Virus record (IMG/VR): IMGVR_UViG_3300035034_002381
Span: 1-64,000 of that record
DNA: 64,000 bases
Direction: 5' to 3' (one strand)
DNA from: a virus
Taxonomy: Duplodnaviria > Heunggongvirae > Uroviricota > Caudoviricetes
The notes beneath the pieces are model-generated. The model had not been told where the DNA came from, searched no databases, and saw only the letters and a program-made list of their open reading frames with translations. Every line of letters begins with the position of its first letter. The stretch's first letter is position 1. Below, one piece after another: positions 303 to 35,989 of the stretch. The position numbers were made by a program, and so were the translations under genes.

Positions 303-351
303 CAACATATTCAGATAAGGTTCTGGGTTCGAATCCCAGTCTGAATACAGC

Positions 352-828: not shown

Positions 829-867
829 CAACATGGGGGAAGACAAAGGTAAATTTATTGAAGATTT

Positions 868-2714: not shown

Positions 2715-3176
2715 ATGGTAGATTTCAACACAATCACAGAGAAAAACGAATCTGAAGCAAAAGCAAAATTCAGAGAAAATGGTACCGGAGTTAAAATGGG
2801 AACATTTGCTTCTGGTGACGAAAGCAAATGGGAAGATCTAATTAACACAGGTCTTTTCAGTAATCAAGCTATCAAAAACAGAATGCTTGACGTTGCACGC
2901 AGAATTAACACTATGTGTAATGACGAACTTTTAGGTAATCTTGACGTGGCTTTTACTGTTACTGATGCTCGTGATAATAAGGTGGAATTTACCTACATGG
3001 ATATTTATACTTTTTTACGAGCGGCATACCGTTACAGAAGTGAAACTAAGAATTATAGAGAAATGAAAGCTAGAAAAGCTGAACTTGAAAAATTCACTGA
3101 AGAAACTAAGACCGTAAAAGAAAAACGTGCTGAGGCACTCAAGGAACTTAAAGAACTTGAAAAGTCTCTTGCATAA
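2715..3176 (+). CDS. Hypothetical protein with a coiled-coil C-terminus
   Basis: 153-aa ORF with an upstream TAAAACTTT...TATATAA promoter-like motif. Confidence 0.5.
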   Translation: MVDFNTITEKNESEAKAKFRENGTGVKMGTFASGDESKWEDLINTGLFSNQAIKNRMLDVARRINTMCNDELLGNLDVAFTVTDARDNKVEFTYMDIYTFLRAAYRYRSETKNYREMKARKAELEKFTEETKTVKEKRAEALKELKELEKSLA

Positions 3177-3360
3177 AAGTTTCTGTCTCTGGGAGACCTA
3201 ACACTGATGATGACAAGCGTCTTGAAAACCTATTTAATCCATAAACTTGGGAAGAAAATGAGAGTGAGTAACTCGAATGAATCGAATGTATGATTCAAAA
3301 GGTATTGGTAGGTTAATTCTTATCAATACCTCTAAAATTCTTCTTAGAATCCATAAAACT

Positions 3361-3425
3361 TAGCTCATTGGTTGGGCATTTGTATAAGAACAAAAGGAGC
3401 GGTTCAATTCCGTAGACTAGAAGAA
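3361..3425 (+). ncRNA. Degenerate tRNA-like element (D-arm-like tagctcattggttgggc, AT-rich anticodon-like hairpin, T-arm-like gcggttcaattccgt)
   Basis: Hand-folded. It lacks a clean acceptor stem and is preceded by a CTTAGAATCC motif. Confidence 0.3.
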
Positions 3426-3430
3426 TTTAA

Positions 3431-3560
3431 TTGCCGGGTTAGTGTAAGGGTCAACACACGTAAAGTAAACATAGTGAACTTTACGAATCACTTAGAATAA
3501 CTAACTATACAATCCATATGGAGGACGGATAACTGGTTCGAGTCCAGTGCCTGGCACAAA
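3431..3560 (+). ncRNA. tRNA-like module of about 130 nt and a candidate Y-RNA-like RNA. It has acceptor-like ends gccggg/cctggc and a D-arm-like gtgt-aagggtca-acac. A 7-bp stem cgtaaag/ctttacg with a 13-nt loop sits in the anticodon position. A 47-nt insert precedes the T-arm ctggttcgagtccag
   Basis: Hand-folded. It is too long for a tRNA and lies 1 kb upstream of the Ro60 ortholog on the same strand. Confidence 0.4.
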
Positions 3561-3584
3561 TTAAATTGCAGAGTGGTGTAGTGG

Positions 3585-3650
3585 CAGCACACGTAAACGC
3601 CGATTAGTGAAGCATTTACGTTACACTAAAAAATTGGCAAATCTCGTTCA
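3585..3650 (+). ncRNA. Second, related tRNA-like half-module (gcagagt, D-arm-like gtgt-agtggcag-cacac, 7-bp stem acgtaaa/tttacgt with a 17-nt loop). No T-arm follows
   Basis: Shares the D-arm and cgtaaa-stem architecture of the 3431-3560 module. Confidence 0.3.
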
Positions 3651-3789
3651 AAAGAAATTTTCAAATGTAACAACAGAAATTGAAGATGTTGATGAATGGG
3701 TATATTTATATGTAAGAATTTAAAACTTTTTTCAAACTAAAGAATATAAAGAACAATAATACCAATAAAAATTCGACTTAGAATACCTA

Positions 3790-3880
3790 AAACTAAAGTT
3801 TAAATTAGCTCATTGAGCATATTTTTTTTATAAATACGGTCTAGGTTAATCCCTAGAAATTCAAACGTTTAGTCGAATTT
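3790..3880 (+). ncRNA. Degenerate tRNA-like element (acceptor-like gtttaaat/attcaaac, D-arm-like tagctcattgagca, A/T-only anticodon-like hairpin, T-arm-like tctaggttaatccctaga)
   Basis: Hand-folded; preceded by a CTTAGAATACCTAAAAC motif. Confidence 0.3.
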
Positions 3881-3901
3881 TTATTGGTTTTTTAAAATAT
3901 T

Positions 3902-4353: not shown

Positions 4354-4528
4354 ACTTATTCTACTTAGAATACTTAAACTTTATAAATTGGTTCGATTCC
4401 AATTTTTATTGGTCTTTTTCTGTCAATTAAGTATCAAATAAATTTTTAATATATTGATTGATTTGAATATATTAAACAACCTCTCTTAGAAAATCTAAGT
4501 TAGAGAAGTTAAATCATCAAAAACAAAA

Positions 4529-6472
4529 ATGATGTCTACAAAAACAAAATCTTTATCAAAAGAAAGAGTTGCCTCTGTTTCAGGAGATAAACCAAGACTC
4601 CCAAGAACTCTTGAAACTCTTCAAGGTTTAAGAACAGCTCAAGGATTATCTGACGCGCAAATTGCGAATATGTTAGATAACGCATTATCAGAAACTTCAA
4701 GTAACCATATTATATATGTTCTTGAAAGATTAATGTTACACATTGGTGATGTGAGTCGACAACACAATATGTTGAAAGAATTGGGAATTAATTCTAAATC
4801 TGGTGGCGCACAAGAACGTGGGGTATTCCGATCTATTTTACGATGGTGGGAAAAAACTTTGCCTGAATCATTTGCAGAAAATCTTCGAGTATTCGCTGAA
4901 TTCTCAGTTTTGGAAAACTTGATGTTTTATGAACTTAAAACTGAAAGAGCAACTGGAAAATTAATTGGAAAGGAAATTTTGTTTCCTATGCCAAGTAAAG
5001 TACATGAATTTCTAGCGAACGAAATTCACAAAAATAGAAATGTGAATCTTATTGCTAAGCATTTACCAAAATATGACACTGGTAAAAGTCGAACCACTAA
5101 GAAAACCATGCATATTAAAGACGGTAAGGATAGTTTCATGTGGAAACTTCCTGAAGGTAAAGCTTGGGTTAAATTAAATGGTGATCTAATCGAAGGAGAA
5201 TCTGTTAAGATTACTCAAGGTGATGTAGTTTCATATCCTCGTGATAAATCTTCACATGTTTTAGAAAAACAAAGATTCGTTAATTCTTGGATTTCTAGTT
5301 TCTGTAAAGTTATGGGATGGTCAATTACTGATTATAACAATTTCCGTAAACAACAAAACACACCGGAACAAAAATTCTCAAGTAAACGTGTTTTAAACAT
5401 GCCGAAATCAGATTTCTGGAAAATGCTTGATGGTTTGACTTCTGGTCAAAGATACAGAGTTTCTAGAATGTTAGATTTCAATGCGGAAAAGTGGGGAGAA
5501 TTACCGAAATGGTATGATTTGTGGGAAGGTAACCAAGAAAAAGTAGCCGATAAACTTCGACAAGCTGCAGCTGATGGTGATACTGAAGCAACAGAAAAAT
5601 TGAAGAAAGAATTCAAGGTTAAATCTACTGGAAAAAACACTGTTGATTTATTGAAAGATATGTTAACAGGTAATCATGACGATAGATTCATTAACAACAC
5701 TTATCAATCTATGATTGAGAATATGGATATTGTTGCGAATGTTTTTCCAGTAATTGATGGTTCCGCATCTATGGATTGCCAAATTGGTGGAGGATGGAGT
5801 CCTCGAAGTTCTCGAAGTTCTACGGATAGACAACTTTCAAATAGAGCTGTCGCATATGCTATGGCAATTGCATTTTCTACTAGAAACCCAGTACCAGGAT
5901 TCCGTAACACGTTCGGATGGTTCTCCAGAAACTTTCACATTGTTGGAAAATCTAAGTATGTGAACAATGCACCTAATCAATACGTTGATTCTGGAAGTTA
6001 TACTAAAAAGGTTAATGAGTTCAATGTTTTATCTGAAACTAATACTTTCACTGAAAACTACTCAAACTTGAGAAAATCTGATCCAGGAGAAATATCATCT
6101 ACAAATATGGGTTCTGTGATTACTCACTTCACAAATTTAGTAGAAACTGGTAAATTTCATGTTGAGGATCTTCCATCTGCGTTACTTTTTATCACAGATA
6201 ATGAAAACAACACAGGAATTAGTCCGAAGGAAGCGTTGGCAATAGCTAACAAAATTGGATGGTCTCCATTGGTTATTTTCTGGGGGTTAACTAAAGTTCC
6301 AAGCAACATGATGAATCAGTATAAGGGAATTCCTAACTGCTTACTTGTTGGAGGATTTAATGAATCAGTACTTTCACAAGTACTTAGGGGTATTAAATCT
6401 GGTTCAGTTGATCCAGAGGATGAAATCTGGAGTATTGTCGAAAATAAAAGATATGCAGTAATTACTGAGTAA
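4529..6472 (+). CDS. rsr: Ro60 (Rsr) ortholog: an N-terminal helical TROVE-like region plus a C-terminal von Willebrand factor A domain with a MIDAS motif
   Basis: MIDAS DGSASM (human Ro60 has DVSASM), followed by NRAVAYAMAIAFSTRN (Ro60 ASTVAAAMCMVVTRTE). Then LLFITDNENNTG (Ro60 FIVFTDNETFAG) and NCLLVGGFNESVLSQVLRGI (Ro60 MLDMCGFDTGALDVIRNF). The 647-aa size is about 400 aa of helical domain plus about 240 aa of vWA. Confidence 0.75.
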   Translation: MMSTKTKSLSKERVASVSGDKPRLPRTLETLQGLRTAQGLSDAQIANMLDNALSETSSNHIIYVLERLMLHIGDVSRQHNMLKELGINSKSGGAQERGVFRSILRWWEKTLPESFAENLRVFAEFSVLENLMFYELKTERATGKLIGKEILFPMPSKVHEFLANEIHKNRNVNLIAKHLPKYDTGKSRTTKKTMHIKDGKDSFMWKLPEGKAWVKLNGDLIEGESVKITQGDVVSYPRDKSSHVLEKQRFVNSWISSFCKVMGWSITDYNNFRKQQNTPEQKFSSKRVLNMPKSDFWKMLDGLTSGQRYRVSRMLDFNAEKWGELPKWYDLWEGNQEKVADKLRQAAADGDTEATEKLKKEFKVKSTGKNTVDLLKDMLTGNHDDRFINNTYQSMIENMDIVANVFPVIDGSASMDCQIGGGWSPRSSRSSTDRQLSNRAVAYAMAIAFSTRNPVPGFRNTFGWFSRNFHIVGKSKYVNNAPNQYVDSGSYTKKVNEFNVLSETNTFTENYSNLRKSDPGEISSTNMGSVITHFTNLVETGKFHVEDLPSALLFITDNENNTGISPKEALAIANKIGWSPLVIFWGLTKVPSNMMNQYKGIPNCLLVGGFNESVLSQVLRGIKSGSVDPEDEIWSIVENKRYAVITE

Positions 6473-8273: not shown

Positions 8274-8636
8274 ATGAAAGTAATTTATTCTGCAGTTTTT
8301 GTTGATAAGTCTACCCTTATAAAAAAATTTAAACCGGTATTTGATAACATTCATGCTCATCACATGACTATTGAATTTAGACCAGAATCAACAGATAATC
8401 TGGATATTGACAAAAATTACAAATTGAAAATTATCGGTAGATTAATTACAGACAAAGTTGATGTTCTTCTTGTTGATGATGGAGGCATCAGTAAAAATGA
8501 ATTCCCACACATTACAATTTCTATAGCTGATGGTGTTAGGCCTTTCGAAAGTAATACCGAAATCAAAAATAATTATTCCAAAATAACTAAACTTCGTGGA
8601 GAAATAACAGGCAAAATCGGAGTTTTCACCGCATAA
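8274..8636 (+). CDS. Small 2H phosphoesterase superfamily protein (LigT / 2',3'-cyclic phosphodiesterase or Acb1-like)
   Basis: Two H-x-T-x motifs, HHMTIEF and PHITISI, about 70 residues apart in a 120-aa protein. Confidence 0.5.
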   Translation: MKVIYSAVFVDKSTLIKKFKPVFDNIHAHHMTIEFRPESTDNLDIDKNYKLKIIGRLITDKVDVLLVDDGGISKNEFPHITISIADGVRPFESNTEIKNNYSKITKLRGEITGKIGVFTA

Positions 8637-9150: not shown

Positions 9151-9155
9151 ATTTG

Positions 9156-9245
9156 GAAGATAAAGCAGCTGCATTGGAGCGGCGACTAGCCTTGAAAACT
9201 AGGTCTCGGAGAAATCTGGGTGGGGTTCGAGTCCTCTGTCTTCCT
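9156..9245 (+). tRNA. Class II tRNA-Ser (TGA)
   Basis: Acceptor ggaagat/gtcttcc, anticodon loop cttgaaa, long variable arm, T-loop ttcgagt; 90 nt. Confidence 0.55.
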
Positions 9246-9362: not shown

Positions 9363-9493
9363 CTATGTTCTTCTTAGAATAACTAATTTATGTAAATGTG
9401 AGTTCGAATCTCATCAAATGCTTTTAGCATCTGTAGCCAAATGGTTAGGCAATATACTTGAAATATATAACAAACGATTAGAAGAACAACATG

Positions 9494-9714: not shown

Positions 9715-9795
9715 GTTTCAGTGGTGGAATGGTAGACACGTCGGTCTTAGGAACCGATGCCGAAAGGCGTGAGAGTTCGAGTCTCTCCTGGAATA
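9715..9795 (+). tRNA. Class II tRNA-Leu (TAG), canonical architecture
   Basis: D-arm gtg-gaatggtaga-cac, anticodon stem tcggt/accga with loop cttagga, variable arm gccgaaaggc, T-arm gagagttcgagtctctc. Confidence 0.65.
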
Positions 9796-9796
9796 C

Positions 9797-9876
9797 ACTC
9801 TGGTGGATTAGGTAAATTGGTACAGCTAAACGGCTTAGACCCGTATCCCTTCTGGGTTCGAATCCCAGTCAGAGTA
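9797..9876 (+). tRNA. Atypical 80-nt tRNA-like gene, family member 1. The anticodon-like hairpin is acgg-cttagac-ccgt (TAG). There is no variable arm, and a 7-nt insertion separates the acceptor from the 3-bp D-stem
   Basis: Acceptor actctgg/tcagagt, conserved block tggattaggtaaattggtacagctaa, T-arm ctgggttcgaatcccag. Confidence 0.5.
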
Positions 9877-9881
9877 CAAAT

Positions 9882-9961
9882 GCTCCTGTGGTTTATGTAA
9901 ATTGGCACAGCTAAGCGGCTTAAACCCGCAACCTTTATGGGTTCGAGTCCCATCAGGAGTA
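9882..9961 (+). tRNA. Atypical 80-nt tRNA-like gene, family member 2; anticodon-like hairpin gcgg-cttaaac-ccgc (TAA)
   Basis: Acceptor gctcctg/caggagt, conserved block tggtttatgtaaattggcacagctaa, T-arm atgggttcgagtcccat. Confidence 0.5.
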
Positions 9962-10056
9962 CAAAAGTTTATCAACGTCTTGAGTCAAGTTGGATGATGA
10001 CAAAAAGGCTAACGGCAGAAGTGAATCCATCGCACTGTGTTACATAAACTTTATCT

Positions 10057-10553: not shown

Positions 10554-10565
10554 CATGAAAAATAT

Positions 10566-10645
10566 GCCTCTGTGGATTATGTAAATTGGCACAGCTAACG
10601 GTTTCAAACTCCGATCTTTTATGGGTTCGAATCCCATCAGAGGCA
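10566..10645 (+). tRNA. Atypical tRNA-like gene, family member 4; anticodon-like hairpin cgg(t)-ttcaaac-(t)ccg (CAA)
   Basis: Perfect acceptor gcctctg/cagaggc, conserved block tggattatgtaaattggcacagctaa, T-arm atgggttcgaatcccat. Confidence 0.5.
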
Positions 10646-10661
10646 CAAGTAGGAGAAATTT

Positions 10662-10746: not shown

Positions 10747-10787
10747 CTAAGTTAGTACGGGTTCGATCCCCGTCTTGGCTACTAAAT

Positions 10788-10899
10788 TTGACCGTGGTGA
10801 AATTGGTAAACACACCCTTAAATCAGGGAGTATGAGAATATGTACTTGAAGCTGACGCAGAACATCATACATATGTAGGTTCGAATCCTATCGGTCGAA
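10788..10899 (+). ncRNA. 112-nt tRNA-like RNA with a roughly 45-nt extra stem-loop (atatgta...tacatat) inserted before the T-arm
   Basis: Acceptor ttgaccg/cggtcga, Leu-type D-arm gtg-aaattggtaaa-cac, anticodon-like ccc-ttaaatca-ggg, T-arm gtaggttcgaatcctat. Confidence 0.4.
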
Positions 10900-10904
10900 C
10901 AAAT

Positions 10905-10978
<74 letters not shown>

Positions 10979-11325
10979 CTATCTAAAACTTTATTCAATT
11001 TCCATAATATAATGTGTAACTAAACTTTATAGAAATGGAAAAAATACTAATGTCTGAAATTTTGACTTATGACAACTTCGACGACGGTTTACCTGAAGAA
11101 TATGAATTTGTCGATTCTGAACAAACATATTTTGATGGTGAAAAAGGCTTTGTTAATATCGAAGCTATTATCAGAAGAGAATCAGACTCACAATTTTTAA
11201 AGTAAAATACACCGATTATGGAAAAGGTGAAAATGATCTTATGGAAAGTGTGGGCGAACCTGTAACTCAAAAATCCAAAACAATTTTCTACTATGTAACT
11301 CAAAAATCCAAAACAATTTTCTACT

Positions 11326-11598
11326 ATGAATAGTATGACCTTTTTATTAGGCATTACGTATGTTATCGGATACTTTTTAAGTATCATAATCCTAAAAAGA
11401 TTTCACCATATTTTGGATATTCCAGATTATAATTCATATCCAAAATATAATGAATATTCAAGCAATGCACAAGCATACACAATGTGGTCAATTGTATGGC
11501 CGTTATTTTGGGTCTTAAAAATCATAGTTCTTCTTTTCGAAAAACTTATTAATTTAACTAAATATATACTAAATGGAAACTCAAGCTCAAGAAAGTAA
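11326..11598 (+). CDS. Small membrane protein with two hydrophobic segments
   Basis: LLGITYVIGYFLSIIIL and MWSIVWPLFWVLKIIVLLF. Confidence 0.4.
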   Translation: MNSMTFLLGITYVIGYFLSIIILKRFHHILDIPDYNSYPKYNEYSSNAQAYTMWSIVWPLFWVLKIIVLLFEKLINLTKYILNGNSSSRK

Positions 11599-19213: not shown

Positions 19214-21007
19214 ATGAAACTTTTAAACGAACAAAAGATCTATGATGAGTGGGCTCCTATGCTAGAGGAGGAAACTTCAATCAAAGATTCTTCAAAATTG
19301 GGATGGATGACTAAATATTGTCACTACCATTCATTAAATGAAGCATTCACTGCACCTGCAGCTGGATTGCTTAACACGCCAGGTATGGGTAATGTAACTC
19401 CTGCTGGAGCTGCTGCCGGTGGTGCTAATGCATTCTACGGAAGTACTACTACTGGTTCAGGAGATAAATTCCCTTCATTATTGCCACTATCTATTCAGGT
19501 AGCTGCAAGAACTGTAGGATTTGATATCGTTCCTGTTATTCCTATGAACGGACCTTCGGGGGTTCTTACATACATGGATTATGTCTATGCTGGTGGAAAA
19601 GGAGCATTCGGAGCACCTCCAGGTGCTGCAGGTGCTGCAAACCCAGGTCTTAACGCTTACGCTGACAAGCCGTTAGTATTCAAAATCCAACTTGTTGGAG
19701 ATGAGAAAACTGCTTTCGATGCTGCTGCTGCGGGTGATGAATTCTTATTTGCTTCTGGTGCACTTGCTGCAACTGGAAACACACTACGTGTTGCTAAAAT
19801 CGGTCCTTCTAGAATCGACGGTCACTCTATTTTTAGAGTAATTGGAGAATCTGGTGATGCTGATGCGACTGGCGGTGCAGCTGCTGCTGTAGCGACAACT
19901 CTTACATCGCCACAATCTATCACATTGGCTTCTGTATTTACAGGAACTGCTGCGATGATTACTGCGGCTGGTGCTTTAGTTGATGCTGCTGATTCAGTAG
20001 TTAATCGTCCAGAACTTGTTAAAGCTCTTGAAGATCACGTTCAAGGTTTTGCTGGTGCAGGTCCAAACGATGATGAAGCATGGTCAGGAAATGCGACTGA
20101 TGGTACTGTATCTTACGAACCAATGCGAAGAGGTGTAGGTGAAGAGCAGTACTTCAGAACTATGGGACTTCAAGCTTTCACGAAATTCATTGAAGCTGAA
20201 ACTTTCCAAGTTGCTGCTAATGTTACTACAGAACAAATTCAAGATTTACAACGTCAGTATGGAATCGATGTGATTGCAATGATCGAGAACTCATTAGTAA
20301 ATGATATCTCTCAATCTATTAACAAGCACATTCTTTCTAGAGCTTTCGCTCTTGGATGGGGTGCAAACCTTACATTCAGAGATGTTGAAGGTGCAAACCT
20401 TAACCTTGAATTGGTAAACACTGGAACTGGTGTTACTGCAACTCCTGCTTACATTGATAAGACTGGAGTAGGTACTGCATCTGTATATCCTGCTTTCCAA
20501 GAATTTGCTGGAGCTGCTGCTGCTGCATCATTGGAAAACCAAGCAACATTCCAACGAAGAGTATATTCTAAAGTACTTGCTGCTGGAAACGTTGTTACTC
20601 AAAGAGGACGTAGAGGACCTGCAAACTTCATTGTTACTAACCTTCAGTTAGCGACAGCGTTGCAAGATTCTGCACAATTCTCTTGGGCACCAATGGCAAA
20701 CACCATTAACCAAAACAACGGTTCGCTTTACCCAGTGGGTACTGTAGCCGGAATGACTGTTTATGTAGATCCTAACATGGGATTCTCTGATAACAGAATT
20801 CTTGTTGGACGTAAAGGTGCTGATGAAGAACCAGGACTTAAATTCATGCCTTACTTAATGGCTGAATCAATCCAAACAATTGCTGAAGGTACAATGGCTC
20901 CGAAAGTTGCCGTAAAATCACGTTATGCTTTAGTTGAAGCTGGACACCACCCAGAAACAATGTACTTTACTATTGCAGTAAATGTACCTGTAGGTGGATT
21001 AGTATAA
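19214..21007 (+). CDS. Major capsid protein
   Basis: 597-aa Ala/Gly-rich protein directly after the protease/scaffold gene, followed by a strong terminator, with codon usage typical of highly expressed virion genes. Confidence 0.6.
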   Translation: MKLLNEQKIYDEWAPMLEEETSIKDSSKLGWMTKYCHYHSLNEAFTAPAAGLLNTPGMGNVTPAGAAAGGANAFYGSTTTGSGDKFPSLLPLSIQVAARTVGFDIVPVIPMNGPSGVLTYMDYVYAGGKGAFGAPPGAAGAANPGLNAYADKPLVFKIQLVGDEKTAFDAAAAGDEFLFASGALAATGNTLRVAKIGPSRIDGHSIFRVIGESGDADATGGAAAAVATTLTSPQSITLASVFTGTAAMITAAGALVDAADSVVNRPELVKALEDHVQGFAGAGPNDDEAWSGNATDGTVSYEPMRRGVGEEQYFRTMGLQAFTKFIEAETFQVAANVTTEQIQDLQRQYGIDVIAMIENSLVNDISQSINKHILSRAFALGWGANLTFRDVEGANLNLELVNTGTGVTATPAYIDKTGVGTASVYPAFQEFAGAAAAASLENQATFQRRVYSKVLAAGNVVTQRGRRGPANFIVTNLQLATALQDSAQFSWAPMANTINQNNGSLYPVGTVAGMTVYVDPNMGFSDNRILVGRKGADEEPGLKFMPYLMAESIQTIAEGTMAPKVAVKSRYALVEAGHHPETMYFTIAVNVPVGGLV

Positions 21008-21116: not shown

Positions 21117-22802
21117 ATGAACACTTCAGTCAAAGATATTATAAAAAACGTAAAATCCACCAAAGGTTTAGCAGTAAAAATATCAAATTCAGAAAGTCTA
21201 AATAAAGAACTTTTAGAATTAACCAAATACCTACCAACAGACTCTAGTATATCTGAGCGCATTTATAATATCTTAAATAATATTGATGTACAAAGTCTTT
21301 GTATTTGTGGTGACACATTACCATTCATTAAAATTTCCAAAGGTTACAAAACTTCGTGTGGTAATAAAGAATGTAAGTCGCGAACACGGAGTAATATTAA
21401 TAAAGAATCCAGTAAGAAAATAGACTGGGGCGAATCGATCAATAAACAACAAAAAACCAATTTACAAAAATACGGTTATGTTTCTAATCTTGCATCACCT
21501 AAAGAACGAGAAAAACATAAAGTTATTCTTAAAGAATTGACTGGATATGAACACCCATTACAGAATCCTGAATCTAAAAAGAAAAGACATAACACTTGTA
21601 TAAAAAATCATGGTACATTAAATTTCATCCATTCAAATAAATCAATACAAACGTTACAAGCAAAATATAATACCACTGCCACTAATTGTGCTCAAATACC
21701 CGAAATTCAAGATAGATCTGCCAAAACCCAATCTATAAATGCTGATAAAGCTTTATATCAAAAAATTGATAAAATAAATAAAACTATAATAGATCTTAAT
21801 AAAACAAATGCTAATATTGAGTGTGTGGGTTGTGGTCGTATTATGAATATACATCGGCAAGCACTCAATTATTATATTCGAAATTCTATTGACAATTGTT
21901 GGTCTTGCAACCCTGATTTTTCACCATTTGCCAGTAACAAAGAAAAGATGATTGTTACATGGCTCACTGATATAGGTATCACAAATATTGACACAAATCG
22001 CCGGAGATTTGGTGGTAAAGAAATAGATATTTTCTTAAATGATTATAACCTAGGAATTGAATTCAATGGCACATATTGGCATAGTGAATTACACAAAGAA
22101 AAAAATTACCATTTAAATAAAAAAACATATATTGAGAACTTGGGTTTCAAGTTGATTAATGTTTGGGAAGATGATTGGGAAGATGATATAAAACGTAATA
22201 TAATTCAAAGCAGAATTAAAAATTTAATAAACCTAAATCACCGCAAAATATATGGGCGTAAATGTCAGATAGTTCAAATATCTAACAAAGAAGCTAAAGA
22301 ATTTTATACCAATAATCATATTCAAGGTCATGCTATATCAGAAATTAACTACGCATTAGTATATGATAATGAAATTGTTTCAGTCATGAGCTTTTCTAGT
22401 AAAAATAGATTTTTCATTAAGAAAAATAGGGATAATGAAATAGAGTTGACTAGATTTGCAAATTTGATAGGTGTAAGTGTTTTAGGTGGTTTCTCTAAAC
22501 TATTCAAACATTTTTTGAAAAATAATGACCATGATACCATTATTTCATTTGCAGAATTTGATTGGACTGATGAGACTAATAATGTTTATCTTATGAATGG
22601 TTTTAAATTTTTAGGGAATTCTGGACCATCGTATTCATGGGTTGTTAATGGAAAACGGTTTTCTAGATTTAACTTTTCTAAGCAAAAATTAATCAAAGAA
22701 GGTTATGATAAGAATAAAACAGAAGTCGAAATAATGCACGAAAGAAAATATTATCGAGCTTGGAATAGTGGTAACTTAAAATTTATTTATAATAAATTAT
22801 AA
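21117..22802 (+). CDS. Free-standing homing-endonuclease-like protein: two Cys4 zinc fingers, a Vsr/DUF559-type (PD-(D/E)xK-like) nuclease core and a C-terminal putative DNA-binding region
   Basis: CICGDT...CGNKEC and CVGCGR...CWSCNP zinc fingers. The core IDIFLNDYNLGIEFNGTYWHSELH resembles the Vsr FVDGCFWHGH motif. The gene is inserted between the capsid gene and a recoded copy of the capsid gene 3' end. Confidence 0.55.
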   Translation: MNTSVKDIIKNVKSTKGLAVKISNSESLNKELLELTKYLPTDSSISERIYNILNNIDVQSLCICGDTLPFIKISKGYKTSCGNKECKSRTRSNINKESSKKIDWGESINKQQKTNLQKYGYVSNLASPKEREKHKVILKELTGYEHPLQNPESKKKRHNTCIKNHGTLNFIHSNKSIQTLQAKYNTTATNCAQIPEIQDRSAKTQSINADKALYQKIDKINKTIIDLNKTNANIECVGCGRIMNIHRQALNYYIRNSIDNCWSCNPDFSPFASNKEKMIVTWLTDIGITNIDTNRRRFGGKEIDIFLNDYNLGIEFNGTYWHSELHKEKNYHLNKKTYIENLGFKLINVWEDDWEDDIKRNIIQSRIKNLINLNHRKIYGRKCQIVQISNKEAKEFYTNNHIQGHAISEINYALVYDNEIVSVMSFSSKNRFFIKKNRDNEIELTRFANLIGVSVLGGFSKLFKHFLKNNDHDTIISFAEFDWTDETNNVYLMNGFKFLGNSGPSYSWVVNGKRFSRFNFSKQKLIKEGYDKNKTEVEIMHERKYYRAWNSGNLKFIYNKL

Positions 22803-32816: not shown

Positions 32817-33455
32817 ATGAACATATTTGTTCTTGACGAAAATGTCAAAAAATGTGCCGAATATCATTGTGATAAACATGTTGTCAAAATGATTACTGAG
32901 CATAATCAAATTTTGGGTTCGATTTCTTATTTACGTAGAGGTATTTCTAAAAAATCGGAAATAACTGATGAATTTATTCAACAACATTTCCAAAATTTTC
33001 CTAGAAAAAAATTAGCAATTGATATGGATTCATTACCCATTGCTGATCATTCGCCACTTATCAAAAAATTATGGAATTTTGTAAAACCCGCAGAATTGTC
33101 TTGGCCGTACGGTATTGGTTATAAAAATCATCCATGTACACAATGGGCTAATGCGTCTAAAGAAAATTATGATTGGCTATGCTCACTCAATCTTGAATTG
33201 TGTAAAGAATATACTAAACGATATAATCGTCGACATGCTGGTGAGGATATTACTCAATGGTATATTGAAAACGCACCATATCTACCGAATTCTGGCATGA
33301 CTCCATTTGTTTTAGCTATGCCTGATGATTGTAAATCTGATGATCCAGTTGAATCTTATCGAATTTACTACATTTATCATAAATATAAATTTGCCAAATG
33401 GAAAACAAAAGTTCCAAATTGGTATATAAACGTTATAAAACATCAAGAAATATGA
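32817..33455 (+). CDS. Hypothetical protein
   Basis: 212-aa ORF with a conserved-looking N-terminus MNIFVLDENVKKCAEYHCDKHVVKM; no family assigned. Confidence 0.4.
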   Translation: MNIFVLDENVKKCAEYHCDKHVVKMITEHNQILGSISYLRRGISKKSEITDEFIQQHFQNFPRKKLAIDMDSLPIADHSPLIKKLWNFVKPAELSWPYGIGYKNHPCTQWANASKENYDWLCSLNLELCKEYTKRYNRRHAGEDITQWYIENAPYLPNSGMTPFVLAMPDDCKSDDPVESYRIYYIYHKYKFAKWKTKVPNWYINVIKHQEI

Positions 33456-34009
33456 CAATCAAACACAGAATAACTGATTCTGAAAATACCCATGTTATGC
33501 TCGACATAGAAACTTTGGGTACTGGTGCTAATGCAATCATTTTACAGATTGCAATGGTCAAATTTGGTCTTAACGATCAAAATGGTGAAACAATGAAAAC
33601 TATAGTTAATGTTTTTCCTTGTATCAAAGAACAACATGATGAAGGTAGAACAATGACTTTCGATACAGTTAACTGGTGGCTTGGTCCAGATCATGTGAGC
33701 ATATTAGCAAATCTGCGGAAACAGGAAACATCCAATTTGGTAGATGTTAGATCTCAAATAGCTAAGCACATGGAAGAATTTAGGAAATCGGGAGTTCATC
33801 TGTGGGCAAGGTCACCCAAATTTGACATCAAGATTTTAGAAGATTTTTTAGGAACAGATGTGCCAGAACATTCCCGAAGGCACCAAAGAGATGTTAGAGA
33901 ATATGAATTTATTTCGGGCGATCGCCCAGGTGCATCCCATGATGCAGAAGATGATTGTATTCAACAAATTATATTAGTCACTAATGTTATTCAAAGACTT
34001 TTTATATGA
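33452..34009 (+). CDS. DnaQ-like (DEDDh) 3'-5' exonuclease
   Basis: Exo I motif MLDIETLG, Exo III motif HDAEDD; ATGA start/stop overlap with the upstream gene. Confidence 0.6.
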   Translation: MTIKHRITDSENTHVMLDIETLGTGANAIILQIAMVKFGLNDQNGETMKTIVNVFPCIKEQHDEGRTMTFDTVNWWLGPDHVSILANLRKQETSNLVDVRSQIAKHMEEFRKSGVHLWARSPKFDIKILEDFLGTDVPEHSRRHQRDVREYEFISGDRPGASHDAEDDCIQQIILVTNVIQRLFI

Positions 34010-34122: not shown

Positions 34123-35022
34123 ATGATATCAGAAGAAAAATTTCCCGATGGACAAATTAATTTTAAAGCAAATACAGAGGACATCAAAAGTCTTTTAACA
34201 CCACCATACATTTTATCAAATGATAATGCGATAAATTTTACAATTGATCTAAGTAACTGGGATAAATTTCAAACTTTGTTGGCAGCCAATGCAAAATTTA
34301 GACAAACGCACAAACAAATTAATTTACATATAGGTTATCTTTTTGGTTCAAGAAGTGACCGTAAATTTGAACATGACGGAATTAACTATTTTCGTGATGT
34401 AATTGCTAAAACAATCAATGATCAAAATTTCAACAAAGTTACTGTATTTGATCCACACTCACTTGCAGTAGAAAATGCAATTAATAATTGTGAGAGTATT
34501 CATCCGTTCCCACAAATCAATCACCATTTTTTAAATATGGTTGGAAATTTAGATTTATCTGAATATGAAATTGTTATAGCGTCTCCAGACCTTGGGGCAT
34601 ACAAAAAAGTCTTTGGAATTTTTGCTAAATTTTCCGAAAAATATCCAAACATACATTTTAATTTTATTTCCGCAAATAAAATTCGTAGTCTGTCTGGTGA
34701 TATTTCTATGGTTTTAAATCCACCATATAAAGAATTTGACAAATCAAAAAAACGAATTCTATATTTAATTGATGATATTTGTGATGGCGGGAGGACCTTT
34801 ATAGAATTTGCTAAACTTCTTAACGAAGATTTTGAGAAAAAGTATCTATATGTATCACATGGAATATTTTCTAAAGGTCTTGATCCATTATTAGAACATT
34901 TCGATAAAATTTTTACTACAAACAGTATTTCGAATACTTATATCAAATATCTAACAAACGATAATACCATTCTAAATTCTAACATTCTTTTTACCACATT
35001 TATTTCGCAACGCAATGAATAA
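34123..35022 (+). CDS. Ribose-phosphate pyrophosphokinase (PRPP synthetase)-like enzyme, or alternatively an Adps-type ADP-ribose pyrophosphokinase
   Basis: PRTase-type loop YLIDDICDGGRTF at the position of the Prs DDMIDTGGT, in a 299-aa protein. Confidence 0.55.
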   Translation: MISEEKFPDGQINFKANTEDIKSLLTPPYILSNDNAINFTIDLSNWDKFQTLLAANAKFRQTHKQINLHIGYLFGSRSDRKFEHDGINYFRDVIAKTINDQNFNKVTVFDPHSLAVENAINNCESIHPFPQINHHFLNMVGNLDLSEYEIVIASPDLGAYKKVFGIFAKFSEKYPNIHFNFISANKIRSLSGDISMVLNPPYKEFDKSKKRILYLIDDICDGGRTFIEFAKLLNEDFEKKYLYVSHGIFSKGLDPLLEHFDKIFTTNSISNTYIKYLTNDNTILNSNILFTTFISQRNE

Positions 35023-35989
35023 AAAAGCAACAATTCTTCTTGGACTGCCATTAGCAGGCAAGTCGACTTATATAGGAAACAGAATAGAATATGGTGATTG
35101 GTCAGACACAGGATTAGTTTTAGTATCTGCAGATGATCTTAAAGAAAATCATGAAGATTATGATCCCGACCATGCGTATAAAATTCATGAGTGGTCAGTT
35201 AAAGAGGCCGAAAGGCAAATGAAAGAATACTCAGAATTTGGATCAAAACACATTATCATGGACGGTGGTGGCATTAACAATTCATATACTCGTAGAATTA
35301 TGTCTGATCTACGTTTAAAAGGTTATGAAATTGAACTTATACATATTAAAACGCCGCTCCAAGTTTGTCTTCTTAGAAATGAGAAGCGGGTCCGCAAAGT
35401 TCCAGTGCATGATATTGTAACAAAGGCAGCTCGAGAACGTAAACAATATGAGATACTTAAAGATGTTGTAGATAGTGTTACTATAGTTCCATATTTCACA
35501 AACAAACATATTTTTATAGATATGGATGGAGTTATTGCGGGACAGTCTGTCTTGCCAGAATTTGAAGGAAAAATAGATTTTGTTAATAGCGAAATTTTTA
35601 CTATTTTACCACCTGTTCATCAAGTTATTGATAAACTTAATAGTCTTGATTCTGAAAAACATACACTTTATATTTTATCAGCAACACCGAATTCATATTC
35701 GTATACTGAAAAACATGATTGGTTAGATAAACATTTTAACATACCAAGAGAACGCAGATTTTTTGTAAATGCTGGAAAGCATAAAGCAGAAATGTTAGAA
35801 AATCTAAGAATAAAACTCAAAACTGATAAACGTGATGTCACTCTGATTGAAGATACGCACTCGACACTTAAAGATGTTAGAGACCTTAGAATGAATCCAA
35901 TACATGTATCTGAATTTTTATCAAATGATTTTTTGCGAGATGAAGAATTATATGACTATAAATATTACGAAAACCCAAATAATAAATAA
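35015..35989 (+). CDS. Two-domain P-loop kinase plus HAD phosphatase (T4 Pnkp-like polynucleotide 5'-kinase/3'-phosphatase architecture)
   Basis: Walker A GLPLAGKST at the N-terminus; DxDG motif IFIDMDGVIAG at about residue 168, as in T4 Pnkp. Confidence 0.5.
   Translation: MNKKATILLGLPLAGKSTYIGNRIEYGDWSDTGLVLVSADDLKENHEDYDPDHAYKIHEWSVKEAERQMKEYSEFGSKHIIMDGGGINNSYTRRIMSDLRLKGYEIELIHIKTPLQVCLLRNEKRVRKVPVHDIVTKAARERKQYEILKDVVDSVTIVPYFTNKHIFIDMDGVIAGQSVLPEFEGKIDFVNSEIFTILPPVHQVIDKLNSLDSEKHTLYILSATPNSYSYTEKHDWLDKHFNIPRERRFFVNAGKHKAEMLENLRIKLKTDKRDVTLIEDTHSTLKDVRDLRMNPIHVSEFLSNDFLRDEELYDYKYYENPNNK

What the first reader, a model, noticed from the sequence alone, without database searches (positions are those of the whole stretch)
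3431..3650. Two related tRNA-like modules carrying 7-bp cgtaaa stems instead of anticodon arms
Module 1 (3431-3560) pairs gccggg with cctggc as an acceptor. It has a D-arm-like gtgt-aagggtca-acac and a T-arm ctggttcgagtccag. Where the anticodon arm should be there is cgtaaag-N13-ctttacg plus a 47-nt spacer. Module 2 (3585-3650) repeats the D-arm-like element and has an acgtaaa-N17-tttacgt stem, but no T-arm follows it. The total length (about 130 nt) and architecture fit neither tRNA nor tmRNA. They do resemble YrlA-type tRNA mimics: acceptor plus T-arm plus D-arm with an effector stem.
Basis: seen in the sequence. Interest (0 to 1): 0.7.

Follow-up and report, generated by a model that had tools for sequence, protein, structure and literature searches.

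The report
Ro60-linked tRNA mimics with inserted module
The region holds one complete and one truncated copy of a phage tRNA gene that carries a 52-base inserted RNA module. The same module recurs around a neighbouring Ro60-like gene, so these are most likely Y-RNA-type tRNA mimics, and less likely tRNAs with a new kind of intron.

Summary
Window 3433-3556 has a 7-bp acceptor stem, a D arm, a T arm and the cgtaaag/ctttacg hairpin. Positions 3567-3627 repeat the 5' half.

Three points change the picture.

1. An anticodon arm does exist. Removing 52 nt (3461-3512) joins C27-G28 to UCC, and ARAGORN then calls a canonical tRNA. The same holds for five related genes.
2. Module 2 lacks a T arm only because this genome has a 273-nt deletion. 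Near-identical contigs carry the complete gene.
3. The insert is a copy of a conserved module: a covarying helix AG-N6/N6-CU followed by an invariant UAGAA. I found 34 copies in this phage clade. They sit as hairpins inside tRNAs, as the terminal 5'/3' stem of circularly permuted tRNA-like RNAs (the YrlA layout), or alone. The window's six copies lie from about 1.2 kb upstream to 3 kb downstream of ORF 4529-6472.

Best reading (confidence about 0.5): these are Ro60-associated, Y-RNA-like tRNA mimics in a new topology. Main rival (about 0.28): the module is an excised intron or processing signal of real tRNAs. Binding and processing are untested.

The parts
3433..3556 (+). Module 1: a complete tRNA-derived gene with an insert. 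Acceptor 3433-3439/3549-3555, D arm 3442-3457, T arm 3532-3548, discriminator A3556.
   Evidence: After removal of 3461-3512, ARAGORN calls a 73-nt canonical tRNA. The 3' trailer ACAAA is the same as that of the phage's ordinary tRNAs (family D2).
3433..3460 (+). 5' tRNA part: acceptor 5' strand, U8 A9, D arm, A26, C27 G28.
   Evidence: C27-G28 pair with C42-G43 (3526-3527).
3461..3512 (+). 52-nt inserted module. It has a 12-nt 5' segment, helix AGTGA 3473-3477 / TCACT 3488-3492, the invariant TAGAAT box 3493-3498 and an A-rich 3' segment.
   Evidence: Covariance model of the module: 31.8 bits, E = 1.6e-4 at 3459-3518. Helix covariation across 34 copies. The alignment is A1.
3459..3485 (+). 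It spans the junction between the tRNA part and the insert, and it competes with the module helix.
   Evidence: Pairing probability about 1. It is conserved in M2 (7 bp) and M3 (5 bp) but without compensatory changes. It is absent from the other family members.
3513..3556 (+). 3' tRNA part: U29 C30 C31, 7-nt anticodon-type loop ATATGGA (3516-3522; nt 34-36 = ATG at 3518-3520), GGACG, variable loop GATA, T arm, acceptor 3' strand.
   Evidence: The only difference from L009-L011 within the gene is A3518T. It falls at nt 34 and gives TTG there.
3567..3627 (+). Module 2: a truncated paralogue. It keeps the acceptor 5' strand, the D arm, C27 G28 and the first 34 nt of the insert.
   Evidence: L009-L011 carry the complete gene (L009 4724-4849, anticodon CAU after removal of the insert). 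The window has a 273-nt deletion with CT microhomology.
3335..3428 (+). tRNA-like body (D arm, anticodon-type arm, T arm) enclosed by a 10-bp terminal stem AAATTCTTCT/AGAAGAATTT, with TAGAAT after the 5' strand.
   Evidence: The orthologue is L037 1338-1433.
3758..3891 (+). Degenerate tRNA enclosed by a 13-21-bp terminal stem, with TAGAAT after the 5' strand.
   Evidence: (I4: 21 nt, 95% complementary). The orthologue L037 1584-1700 encloses an intact tRNA-Gln.
4358..4410 (+). Module 5' strand ATTCTACT plus TAGAAT, followed by a T-arm minihelix. This is a degenerate copy with no matching 3' strand.
   Evidence: The L037 orthologue (2210-2332) is a complete permuted tRNA-like gene.
4479..4509 (+). 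Module without a tRNA body, in the 5' leader of the Ro60-like gene (CCTCTCT-TAGAAAATCTAAGTT-AGAGAAG).
   Evidence: Copies at the same position with different helix sequences are L044 2982, L046 5902 and L043 9915.
4529..6472 (+). Divergent Ro60/Rsr-like protein (TROVE-type helical ring plus vWA domain with a DGSGSM MIDAS motif).
9366..9488 (+). Circularly permuted tRNA-like RNA in the YrlA layout. Order: 5' stem strand, TAGAAT, V hairpin, T arm, 3' acceptor, TTTTA, 5' acceptor, D arm, anticodon-type arm (TGA), 3' stem strand.
   Evidence: In-silico rotation gives a full-length ARAGORN tRNA-Ser(TGA). Orthologues are L038 14351, L040 14945 and L043 9577.

Best explanation
**What the genes are.** Modules 1 and 2 are tRNA-derived small-RNA genes of a huge phage related to the Lak megaphages. 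Each keeps a full cloverleaf with open, tRNA-type ends.

**Where the insert sits.** Each gene carries a roughly 52-nt module inside the 5' strand of the anticodon stem, between nt 28 and 29.

**What the module is.** It is a short helix (AG.../...CU) followed by an invariant UAGAA and an A-rich tail. It is the shared signature of a set of RNAs clustered around the phage's Ro60/Rsr-like gene.

**Most likely function (inferred).** The module is the Ro60-binding handle. It plays the role of the terminal stem and CGAA-type motif of Y RNAs. The tRNA body is the effector domain. On this reading the RNAs are Y-RNA-like tRNA mimics that tether or regulate the phage Ro60, probably in RNA or tRNA surveillance or repair during infection.

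**Shown.** The anatomy, the family, the helix covariation, the synteny with the Ro60-like gene, and the truncation of module 2.

**Inferred.** Ro60 binding, retention of the module in the mature RNA, and the biological role.
For: **Split cloverleaf.** Removing the insert gives ARAGORN-canonical tRNAs for M1, M2, M3 and two further genes. The stems are 96.8% paired with several pair types per position.

**Module family.**
- There are 34 copies in 8 genomes. U|AG...CU|UAGAA is invariant.
- The helix is 92.6% paired against 69% in shuffles (0 of 500 shuffles reach it). Covariation is 0.63 against 0.19. Slid controls give 29-49%.
- About 20 long-range pairs are perfect over 8-13 bp, with different sequences.
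- A covariance model finds two copies that were held out of the alignment, both inside tRNA-like genes. In the 64-kb window it hits only 3459-3518 and 3760-3804, both on the + strand.

**Synteny.** Module-bearing RNAs lie within 1.3 kb upstream of this gene, on the same strand, in every relative examined.

**Precedent.**
- YrlA RNAs lie within about 4 kb of Ro60 on the same strand and are circularly permuted tRNA mimics. YrlB lacks the tRNA domain (PMC4201824; bioRxiv 10.1101/312249).
- Thermus phage phiLo has two Y-like RNAs upstream of its Ro60 (PMC12135203).

**Neighbours match that layout.** Window 9366-9488 and four orthologues have the YrlA order. Their closed acceptor stems are paired at 31 of 35 positions, with different sequences.
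Against: - No binding or expression data exist.
- The strict YrlA motif GNCGAAN0-1G is absent, and Pfam TROVE does not match the protein.
- M1 and M2 have open acceptor ends and a canonical 7-nt anticodon-type loop, unlike YrlA.
- The anticodon is conserved between orthologues in three other module-bearing lineages: TGA in four genes with covarying stems, plus CAT and GTA. That pattern suggests decoding or anticodon-specific recognition, which fits real tRNAs better.
- The insertion site varies (D loop; 26/27, 27/28, 28/29; possibly the anticodon loop). Introns do this; a fixed handle might not.
- In M1-M3 the module helix is only 4-5 bp, and the competing cgtaaag hairpin is predicted to out-compete it.
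- Selection bias: the long-range copies were picked for having at least 7 of 8 positions paired.
Confidence: 0.5

Rival explanations
1. **Interrupted real tRNA genes.** The module is an intervening sequence or processing signal. A still unknown endonuclease recognises it and an RNA ligase seals the exons. Module 1 would then mature to a 72-nt tRNA (anticodon TTG in L009-L011, ATG in this window). The permuted genes would mature through a circular or two-piece intermediate, as with BHB introns and permuted tRNAs in archaea and red algae. On this reading the Ro60-like protein is unrelated, or acts as a cofactor.
For: - Removal of the insert restores perfect 5-bp anticodon stems, with exon 1 supplying nt 27-28.
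- The stems covary between genes.
- The spliced M1 folds as a cloverleaf at minimum free energy.
- The loops are canonical (U33, purine 37).
- Anticodons are conserved between orthologues in three lineages.
- The 5' junction is always G|UA, and the 5' segment is 12 nt in four of five genes.
- Insertion sites vary.
- Some acceptor ends encode CCA.
- A Pnkp-like enzyme is present at 35015-35989. A relative carries a weak Tpt1 hit.
- Lak megaphages are reported to have 'enigmatic' tRNA introns (PMC6784885).
Against: - No splicing endonuclease or RNA ligase was found among the window's ORFs of 150 aa or more.
- No BHB geometry exists at any junction.
- There is no group I signature, and 52 nt is too short for one.
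- No insert-free orthologue was found.
- The module also occurs with no tRNA at all, in the leader of the Ro60-like mRNA, and around already complete tRNAs.
- The M1/M3 anticodon is not conserved.
- The 3' segment length is inconsistent between insert-type and permuted copies.
Confidence: 0.28
2. **The reader's literal structure is the functional one.** The 7-8-bp cgtaaag hairpin stacks under the D stem in place of an anticodon arm. The following 46 nt form a long variable region carrying the UAGAA box.
For: - The hairpin dominates the predicted ensemble (P about 1). That conformer is 5 kcal/mol more stable than the split-stem conformer.
- The same pairing exists in M2 (7 bp) and M3 (5 bp).
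- It is compatible with Ro60 recognising the single-stranded 5'-strand motif (PMC4201824).
Against: - There are no compensatory changes.
- It is absent from the other module-bearing genes (Lys, Pro, Tyr, CAU).
- It leaves unexplained the perfect, covarying complementarity between C27-G28/N29-31 and N39-43.
- It cannot coexist with the family-wide helix. As a pseudoknot, loop 3 would be only 1-2 nt.
Confidence: 0.12
3. **Decaying tRNA pseudogenes.** A repeated selfish DNA element disrupted these tRNA genes, and they have no function of their own.
For: - This genome has lost half of module 2 to a deletion.
- Module 1 carries an unusual A34 substitution.
- Several neighbouring copies are degenerate (3758-3891, 4358-4410).
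- The tRNA clusters differ between near-identical genomes.
Against: - Both the exons and the module are maintained across relatives whose flanking protein is only 52-65% identical.
- Compensatory changes occur in all four stems and in the module helix.
- There are no terminal inverted repeats and no consistent target duplications.
- All copies are on the + strand, and in every relative examined they cluster next to one gene.
Confidence: 0.07

Closest known systems
YrlA / YrlB bacterial and phage Y RNAs with Ro60 (Rsr): Chen et al. 2014, PMC4201824; Wang et al. 2018, bioRxiv 10.1101/312249; phage phiLo Yrl1/2, PMC12135203
   Same: - Several small RNAs lie just upstream of a Ro60 orthologue, on the same strand.
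- They have a tRNA-like D arm, T arm and acceptor.
- A conserved short motif ending in GAA sits on the 5' strand at the inner end of a stem.
- Neighbouring copies (for example 9366-9488) have the YrlA order V-T-AS-D with a closed 7-bp acceptor stem. In one relative the acceptor loop encodes CCA, which recalls the RNase P cleavage and CCA addition seen for M. smegmatis YrlA.
- Copies without a tRNA body resemble YrlB.
   Different: - Modules 1 and 2 are not permuted. Their ends are tRNA-type, and the stem module is a closed hairpin inserted at nt 28/29.
- A 7-nt anticodon-type loop is kept.
- The motif is CUUAGAA, not GNCGAAN0-1G or CGAA.
- The protein is about 11-15% identical to known Ro60s and misses Pfam TROVE.
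- There are many more copies per genome, and they lie inside large tRNA clusters.
'Enigmatic' tRNA introns of Prevotella Lak megaphages (Devoto et al. 2019, PMC6784885) and of other jumbo phages (PMC13037316)
   Same: - The phage lineage is related: the major capsid protein is 40-43% identical.
- Oversized tRNA genes become canonical once an internal stretch is removed.
- Such inserts are highly conserved.
- T-arm 'minihelix' elements also occur in this window.
   Different: - Lak introns sit at the canonical 37/38 position.
- They are 93-141 nt long and contain a T-arm minihelix.
- The published intron sequences shown lack the AG.../...CU-UAGAA module.
- No link to Ro60 and no permuted genes were reported.
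BHB introns, split and circularly permuted tRNA genes of archaea and Cyanidioschyzon merolae (from my own knowledge: Soma et al. 2007; Randau et al. 2005)
   Same: One short structured motif marks inserts at various positions in tRNA genes. The same motif marks the leader and trailer of permuted genes.
   Different: - No bulge-helix-bulge geometry is present.
- The hosts are bacteria, which have no EndA-type endonuclease (from my own knowledge).
- The motif also occurs without any tRNA, and next to a Ro60-like gene.
Group I introns in bacterial and phage genes (tRNA-Leu(UAA) of cyanobacteria; T4 td, nrdB and sunY)
   Same: An intervening sequence in a bacterial-type tRNA gene. A helix that includes the 5' junction, like the cgtaaag hairpin, loosely recalls P1.
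   Different: The insert is 52 nt against at least about 200 nt. It has no P3-P9 core, no U-G pair at the junction and no Rfam hit.

Membership tests
YrlA-type Y RNA | Encoded within about 4 kb of a Ro60 orthologue, on the same strand. | tested here: met
YrlA-type Y RNA | Conserved GNCGAAN0-1G (CGAA) motif near the 5' end, in or next to the Ro60-binding stem. | tested here: not met
   M1 and M2 have no GNCGAA. M1 has one ACGAAU in the insert loop, but M2 and M3 do not conserve it. The conserved motif is CUUAGAA.
YrlA-type Y RNA | tRNA-like T and D stem-loops with conserved tRNA nucleotides. | tested here: met
   The T loop is TTCGAGT with G53-C61, the D loop carries GG, and U8 is present.
YrlA-type Y RNA | Acceptor-like stem closed by a loop, with the RNA ends in the Ro60-binding stem (circular permutation of tRNA). 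| tested here: not met
   M1 and M2 have an open acceptor stem followed by a discriminator A and the same ACAA trailer as ordinary tRNAs. The feature is met by the neighbour at 9366-9488.
YrlA-type Y RNA | No anticodon loop. | tested here: not met
   A 7-nt loop (3516-3522) is closed by a split 5-bp stem.
YrlA-type Y RNA | Bound by Ro60/Rsr in vivo. | not testable with these tools
   This needs RIP or EMSA with the 647-aa protein.
Canonical tRNA | Recognised as a contiguous cloverleaf by ARAGORN or the Rfam RF00005 model. | tested here: not met
   No call at 3431-3650, and none at E <= 10. It is recognised only after 52 nt are removed in silico.
tRNA with group I intron | Intron of about 200 nt or more with the group I core; Rfam RF00028 match. 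| tested here: not met
   The insert is 52 nt, and there is no Rfam match at E <= 10.
tRNA with BHB intron / permuted tRNA of the archaeal type | Both junctions lie in 3-nt bulges that flank a 4-bp helix. | tested here: not met
   A script test on five genes found no central helix candidate.
tmRNA | tRNA-Ala-like ends plus a tag reading frame. | tested here: not met
   ARAGORN finds no tmRNA in the window.
Lak-type phage tRNA intron | Insert at 37/38, 93-141 nt long, containing a T-arm minihelix. | tested here: not met
   The insert is at 28/29, is 52 nt long and has no T arm inside. Compared with the published sequences.

The most novel reading that the evidence does not exclude
The AG.../...CU-UAGAA module is the recognition element of a previously undescribed, protein-dependent tRNA splicing and permutation system in bacteriophages. 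It is neither group I nor BHB. On this reading it excises inserts from interrupted tRNA genes and joins the halves of circularly permuted ones, possibly with the divergent Ro60-like protein as the RNA-recognition or chaperone subunit.
Probability: 0.2. Interest if true: 0.9.

Novelty: new variant of a known kind. Interest (0 to 1): 0.6.

Why it matters
**A gap in the Ro60 field.** Ro60 and Y RNAs are conserved from bacteria to humans, yet what the tRNA-like domain of bacterial Y RNAs does is still unknown.

**What this clade offers.** Here the putative Ro60 handle is grafted onto tRNA bodies in three ways:
- with open ends, as in modules 1 and 2;
- circularly permuted, as in YrlA;
- wrapped around whole tRNAs.

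Several lineages keep their anticodons. This gives a natural series of constructs for asking which tRNA features matter, and whether Ro60 acts on tRNAs themselves, for example in repair or protection against host tRNA-cleaving defences.

**Practical consequences.**
- These genes explain part of the tRNA-like sequence that standard tRNA finders miss in huge phage genomes.
- The analysis flags a very divergent Ro60 family that Pfam does not detect.

**If the rival reading is right.** It would be the first protein-dependent tRNA intron and permuted-tRNA system found in phages.

Tried and rejected
**Searches for relatives**
- DNA and protein searches of INPHARED phages with the region and with the 647-aa ORF found nothing.
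- Exact-pattern scans of IMG/VR gave 0 hits for the D arm plus hairpin.
- The scan for CACTTAGAATAACTAA gave 25 hits, all chance matches inside coding regions.
- A specific M1-type pattern found nothing in IMG/VR. In JGI metagenomes it found only the already known contig.
- The relatives found through the SPFH-like gene (L001-L008) carry no module next to that gene.
- Two of the contig look-ups returned no DNA.

**Ideas tested and dropped**
- *CTTAGAAT as a promoter or general processing site.* Five of the six intergenic copies are in tRNA regions, and the flanking helix covaries, which a promoter would not explain.
- *A K-turn or tandem G-A motif at the helix end.* The 3'-strand flank is not conserved beyond U|AG.
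- *A long variable arm formed by the module in the permuted Ser-type genes.* The unpaired linkers are too long to be convincing.
- *Brute-force deletion scanning with ARAGORN.* It was too permissive to locate the junctions.
- *An insert-free orthologue.* None was found.

**Protein searches that gave nothing**
- Pfam and PDB sequence searches did not identify the 647-aa protein. Only PHROG 850 and fold comparison did.
- The 153-aa upstream protein remains unidentified.

Full report
**1. The observation**

The window is a 31% G+C phage-like sequence with all genes on the + strand. It has three tRNA clusters.

- a 7-bp acceptor stem, GCCGGGT/GCCTGGC;
- U8 and A9;
- a D arm, GTGT-AAGGGTCA-ACAC;
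- the hairpin CGTAAAG-N13-CTTTACG;
- a 46-47-nt AT-rich stretch;
- a T arm, ACTGG-TTCGAGT-CCAGT;
- the discriminator A.

Positions 3567-3627 repeat the 5' half with ACGTAAA-N17-TTTACGT and no T arm.

ARAGORN and Rfam call nothing here, even at E <= 10. The fold is better than all 200 shuffles (z = -2.8).

**2. Module 2 is a deletion remnant**

I found three near-identical contigs (L009-L011) through a 99%-identical homologue of ORF 4529-6472. They align base for base with the window, apart from two deletions in the window.

One deletion is 273 nt long and begins right after ...TTACACT (3621-3627). It removes the rest of module 2 and the start of a 94-aa ORF.

In those contigs module 2 is complete (L009 4724-4849) and has the same layout as module 1. 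This includes the shared box CACTTAGAATAACTAA, a T arm and the acceptor 3' strand CTCTGCA.

**3. There is an anticodon arm, split by an insert**

A relative whose flanking protein is 65% identical (L037) carries a syntenic orthologue, M3 (1441-1560).

Comparing M1, M2 and M3 shows the following.
- Just upstream of the T arm there is a canonical 7-nt loop. It is ATATGGA in the window, ATTTGGA in L009-L011, CTCATAA in M2 and ATCAGAA in M3.
- That loop is closed by three pairs.
- The next two 3' nucleotides (C42 G43) pair with C27 G28, which follow the D arm directly.

Deleting the 45-55 nt in between gives sequences that ARAGORN folds as canonical cloverleaves. This works for M1, M2, M3 and two more genes: L044 2711-2858 (anticodon CTT) and L043 9331-9452 (TGG).

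Across the six sequences, 122 of 126 stem positions are paired. The acceptor, anticodon and T stems show 2-4 pair types per position.

The only substitution in module 1 between the window and L009-L011 is A3518T. It falls on nt 34 of this loop.

**4. The insert is a copy of a conserved module**

The insert shares a pattern with other elements in the window and in relatives. The pattern is a 5' segment ending in U, a helix strand AG-N6, the complementary strand N6-CU, an invariant UAGAA(U/A), then N3-4 and UAAA(A)C.

I collected 34 copies from eight genomes. They fall into four arrangements:
- **(a)** hairpins inside otherwise complete tRNA genes (M1-M3, Lys, Pro, two Tyr-GTA, two CAT);
- **(b)** the two strands 50-120 nt apart, forming a terminal stem around a tRNA or tRNA-like body (window 3335-3428 and 3758-3891);
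- **(c)** the same terminal stem around a circularly permuted body (window 9366-9488; L037 2210; L038 14351; L040 14945; L043 9577);
- **(d)** copies with no tRNA body, including one in the leader of ORF 4529-6472 in the window and in three relatives (L043, L044, L046).

Evidence that the helix is real:
- On a register-fixed alignment (A1) the 8-bp helix is 92.6% paired, against 69% in shuffles (0 of 500 reach it).
- It has 68 double-sided changes, and slid controls give 29-49%.
- About 20 of the long-range pairs are perfect over 8-13 bp with different sequences.

One caveat applies: the long-range copies were selected for having at least 7 of 8 positions paired.

A covariance model of the module behaves as follows.
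- It scores M1 at 31.8 bits (E = 1.6e-4).
- It finds two copies that were not in the alignment, both inside tRNA-like genes.
- In the whole 64-kb window it hits only 3459-3518 and 3760-3804.

For arrangement (c), rotating the permuted elements in silico gives full-length ARAGORN tRNAs: four Ser-TGA and one Ile-AAT. Their 3' and 5' acceptor strands are complementary at 31 of 35 positions with different sequences. In L038 the joining loop reads G-CCA.

**5. The neighbouring gene is a Ro60**

In every relative examined, the module-bearing RNAs lie between a conserved gene of about 153 aa and the conserved gene of about 647 aa (window 4529-6472).

Sequence methods mostly fail on the 647-aa protein. 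Pfam gives nothing, and PDB sequence and profile searches give nothing. The positive evidence is this:
- PHROG 850, 'RNA-binding protein', matches at E = 8e-16.
- A DGSGSM MIDAS motif is invariant in 44 homologues.
- An AlphaFold2 model has pLDDT 85 and pTM 0.82.
- All of the top nine Foldseek hits to that model are Ro60 structures over the full length.

The major capsid protein is 40-43% identical to those of the Prevotella Lak megaphages and of a 462-kb uncultured phage.

**6. What is known**

- Bacterial and phage Ro60 genes are accompanied by Y-like RNAs within about 4 kb on the same strand.
- YrlA has the order 5' stem strand (GNCGAAN0-1G), V, T, closed acceptor stem, D, 3' stem strand. 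It is in effect a circularly permuted tRNA.
- M. smegmatis YrlA is cut by RNase P and receives CCA.
- YrlB lacks the tRNA-like domain (PMC4201824; bioRxiv 10.1101/312249).
- Phage phiLo has two Y-like RNAs upstream of its Ro60, and the complex recruits host PNPase (PMC12135203).
- Lak megaphages were reported to have 'enigmatic' tRNA introns (PMC6784885). Those introns sit at 37/38, are 93-141 nt long and contain a T-arm minihelix. The intron sequences retrieved do not contain the module.
- I found no report of permuted tRNA genes in phages.

**7. Interpretation**

The arrangement (c) elements match the YrlA layout, with an extra anticodon-type arm. The arrangement (d) elements match YrlB. In arrangements (b)-(d), where the two strands form a terminal stem, the conserved motif lies on the 5' strand at the inner end of that stem, as in Y RNAs.

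I therefore read the module as the likely Ro60 handle. Modules 1 and 2 would be a new topology of Y-like tRNA mimic: a tRNA with open ends and the handle inserted as a hairpin at nt 28/29. My confidence is about 0.5.

The main rival (about 0.28) is that the module is removed, which would make these interrupted and permuted genuine tRNA genes.

In its favour:
- the clean restoration of the cloverleaf;
- canonical loops;
- anticodon conservation in three other lineages (TGA with covarying stems, CAT, GTA);
- variable insertion sites;
- a constant G|UA 5' junction;
- a Pnkp-like gene at 35015-35989.

Against it:
- no endonuclease or ligase was found in the window;
- there is no BHB geometry;
- there is no group I signature;
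- copies occur without any tRNA;
- the Ro60 synteny would be left unexplained.

The two readings are not strictly exclusive.

**8.

In M1 the cgtaaag hairpin is thermodynamically dominant. Its pairing probability is about 1. Its conformer is at -28.3 kcal/mol, against -23.3 for the split anticodon stem plus module helix.

The hairpin is present in M2 and M3 but shows no compensatory change, and it is absent from the other family members. It overlaps the junction and competes with the module helix. A pseudoknot holding both would be sterically implausible. It may be a lineage-specific alternative conformer. Its role is open.

**9. Verdict**

- The YrlA-like interpretation is partly supported. 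The context is right, but the anatomy is wrong in several respects, and several defining YrlA features are not met by modules 1 and 2.
- Novelty: a new variant of a known kind.
- Binding, expression and processing are untested.

Noticed in passing
window 311-348; 10752-10783; 4380-4410: 'Minihelix' elements made only of an acceptor-like stem and a T arm, for example ATTCAGA-TAAGGTT-CTGGGTTCGAATCCCAG-TCTGAAT-A. They are wedged between or right after normal tRNA genes. Lak-phage tRNA introns contain a similar T-arm minihelix.
   Followed up: partly
window 9155-9244, 9795-9879, 9880-9964, 10564-10648, 10785-10900: tRNA-like genes that ARAGORN does not call. One is a Ser(TGA)-like gene that scores 30.9 bits with the tRNA-Sec model. 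Three are 85-nt Leu-like repeats that are 79-80% identical to each other (family D5).
   Followed up: no
window 835-856 versus L009 1921-2035: L009 has a module-bearing Tyr(GTA) gene with an encoded CCA. The window keeps only its first 22 nt or so (GGGGAAGACAAAGGTAAATTTA). The first tRNA cluster is arranged differently in the two near-identical genomes. The window also lacks 39 nt near position 4425.
   Followed up: partly
L043 9454-9527: A minimal RNA: a 7-bp acceptor stem, a module hairpin (AGTGATT/AATCACT), a T-like hairpin and then A-CCA. It has no D arm and no anticodon arm.
   Followed up: no
module hairpin loops: window 3480-3485, L009 ~4772, L037 ~1488, L044 ~2756, L038 ~7781: TTACG(A) recurs in the apical loop of five insert-type modules. 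In M1 it reads ACGAAT, which contains the CGAA of classical Y RNAs. This may be a second recognition element, or only shared ancestry.
   Followed up: no
window 35015-35989, 33398-34009, 8274-8636; L040 158-610: Candidate RNA end-healing and decay enzymes.
- 35015-35989: a P-loop kinase plus NT5C/HAD phosphatase, Pnkp-like (PHROG 505).
- 33398-34009: an Rv2179c-like 3'-5' exoribonuclease.
- 8274-8636: a weak hit to the tRNA-ligase CPD domain.
- L040 158-610 (a relative): a weak Tpt1 (PTS_2-RNA) hit.
   Followed up: partly
window 2715-3176: A conserved protein of about 153 aa always lies immediately upstream of the module cluster (L037, L038, L040, L043, L044, L046). It has no family or structure match.
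   Followed up: partly
window 11261-11326: A perfect 33-nt tandem duplication (TGTAACTCAAAAATCCAAAACAATTTTCTACTA, two copies).
   Followed up: no
window 21117-22802: An HNH/homing-endonuclease ORF (PHROG 3339, E = 7e-105) lies directly downstream of the major capsid gene (19214-21007).
   Followed up: no
L001, L004-L008 (IMG/VR relatives, contigs up to 353 kb): These related huge phages encode their own tmRNA, with tag peptides ending in ...GEVAYA or ...GEVALA.
   Followed up: no
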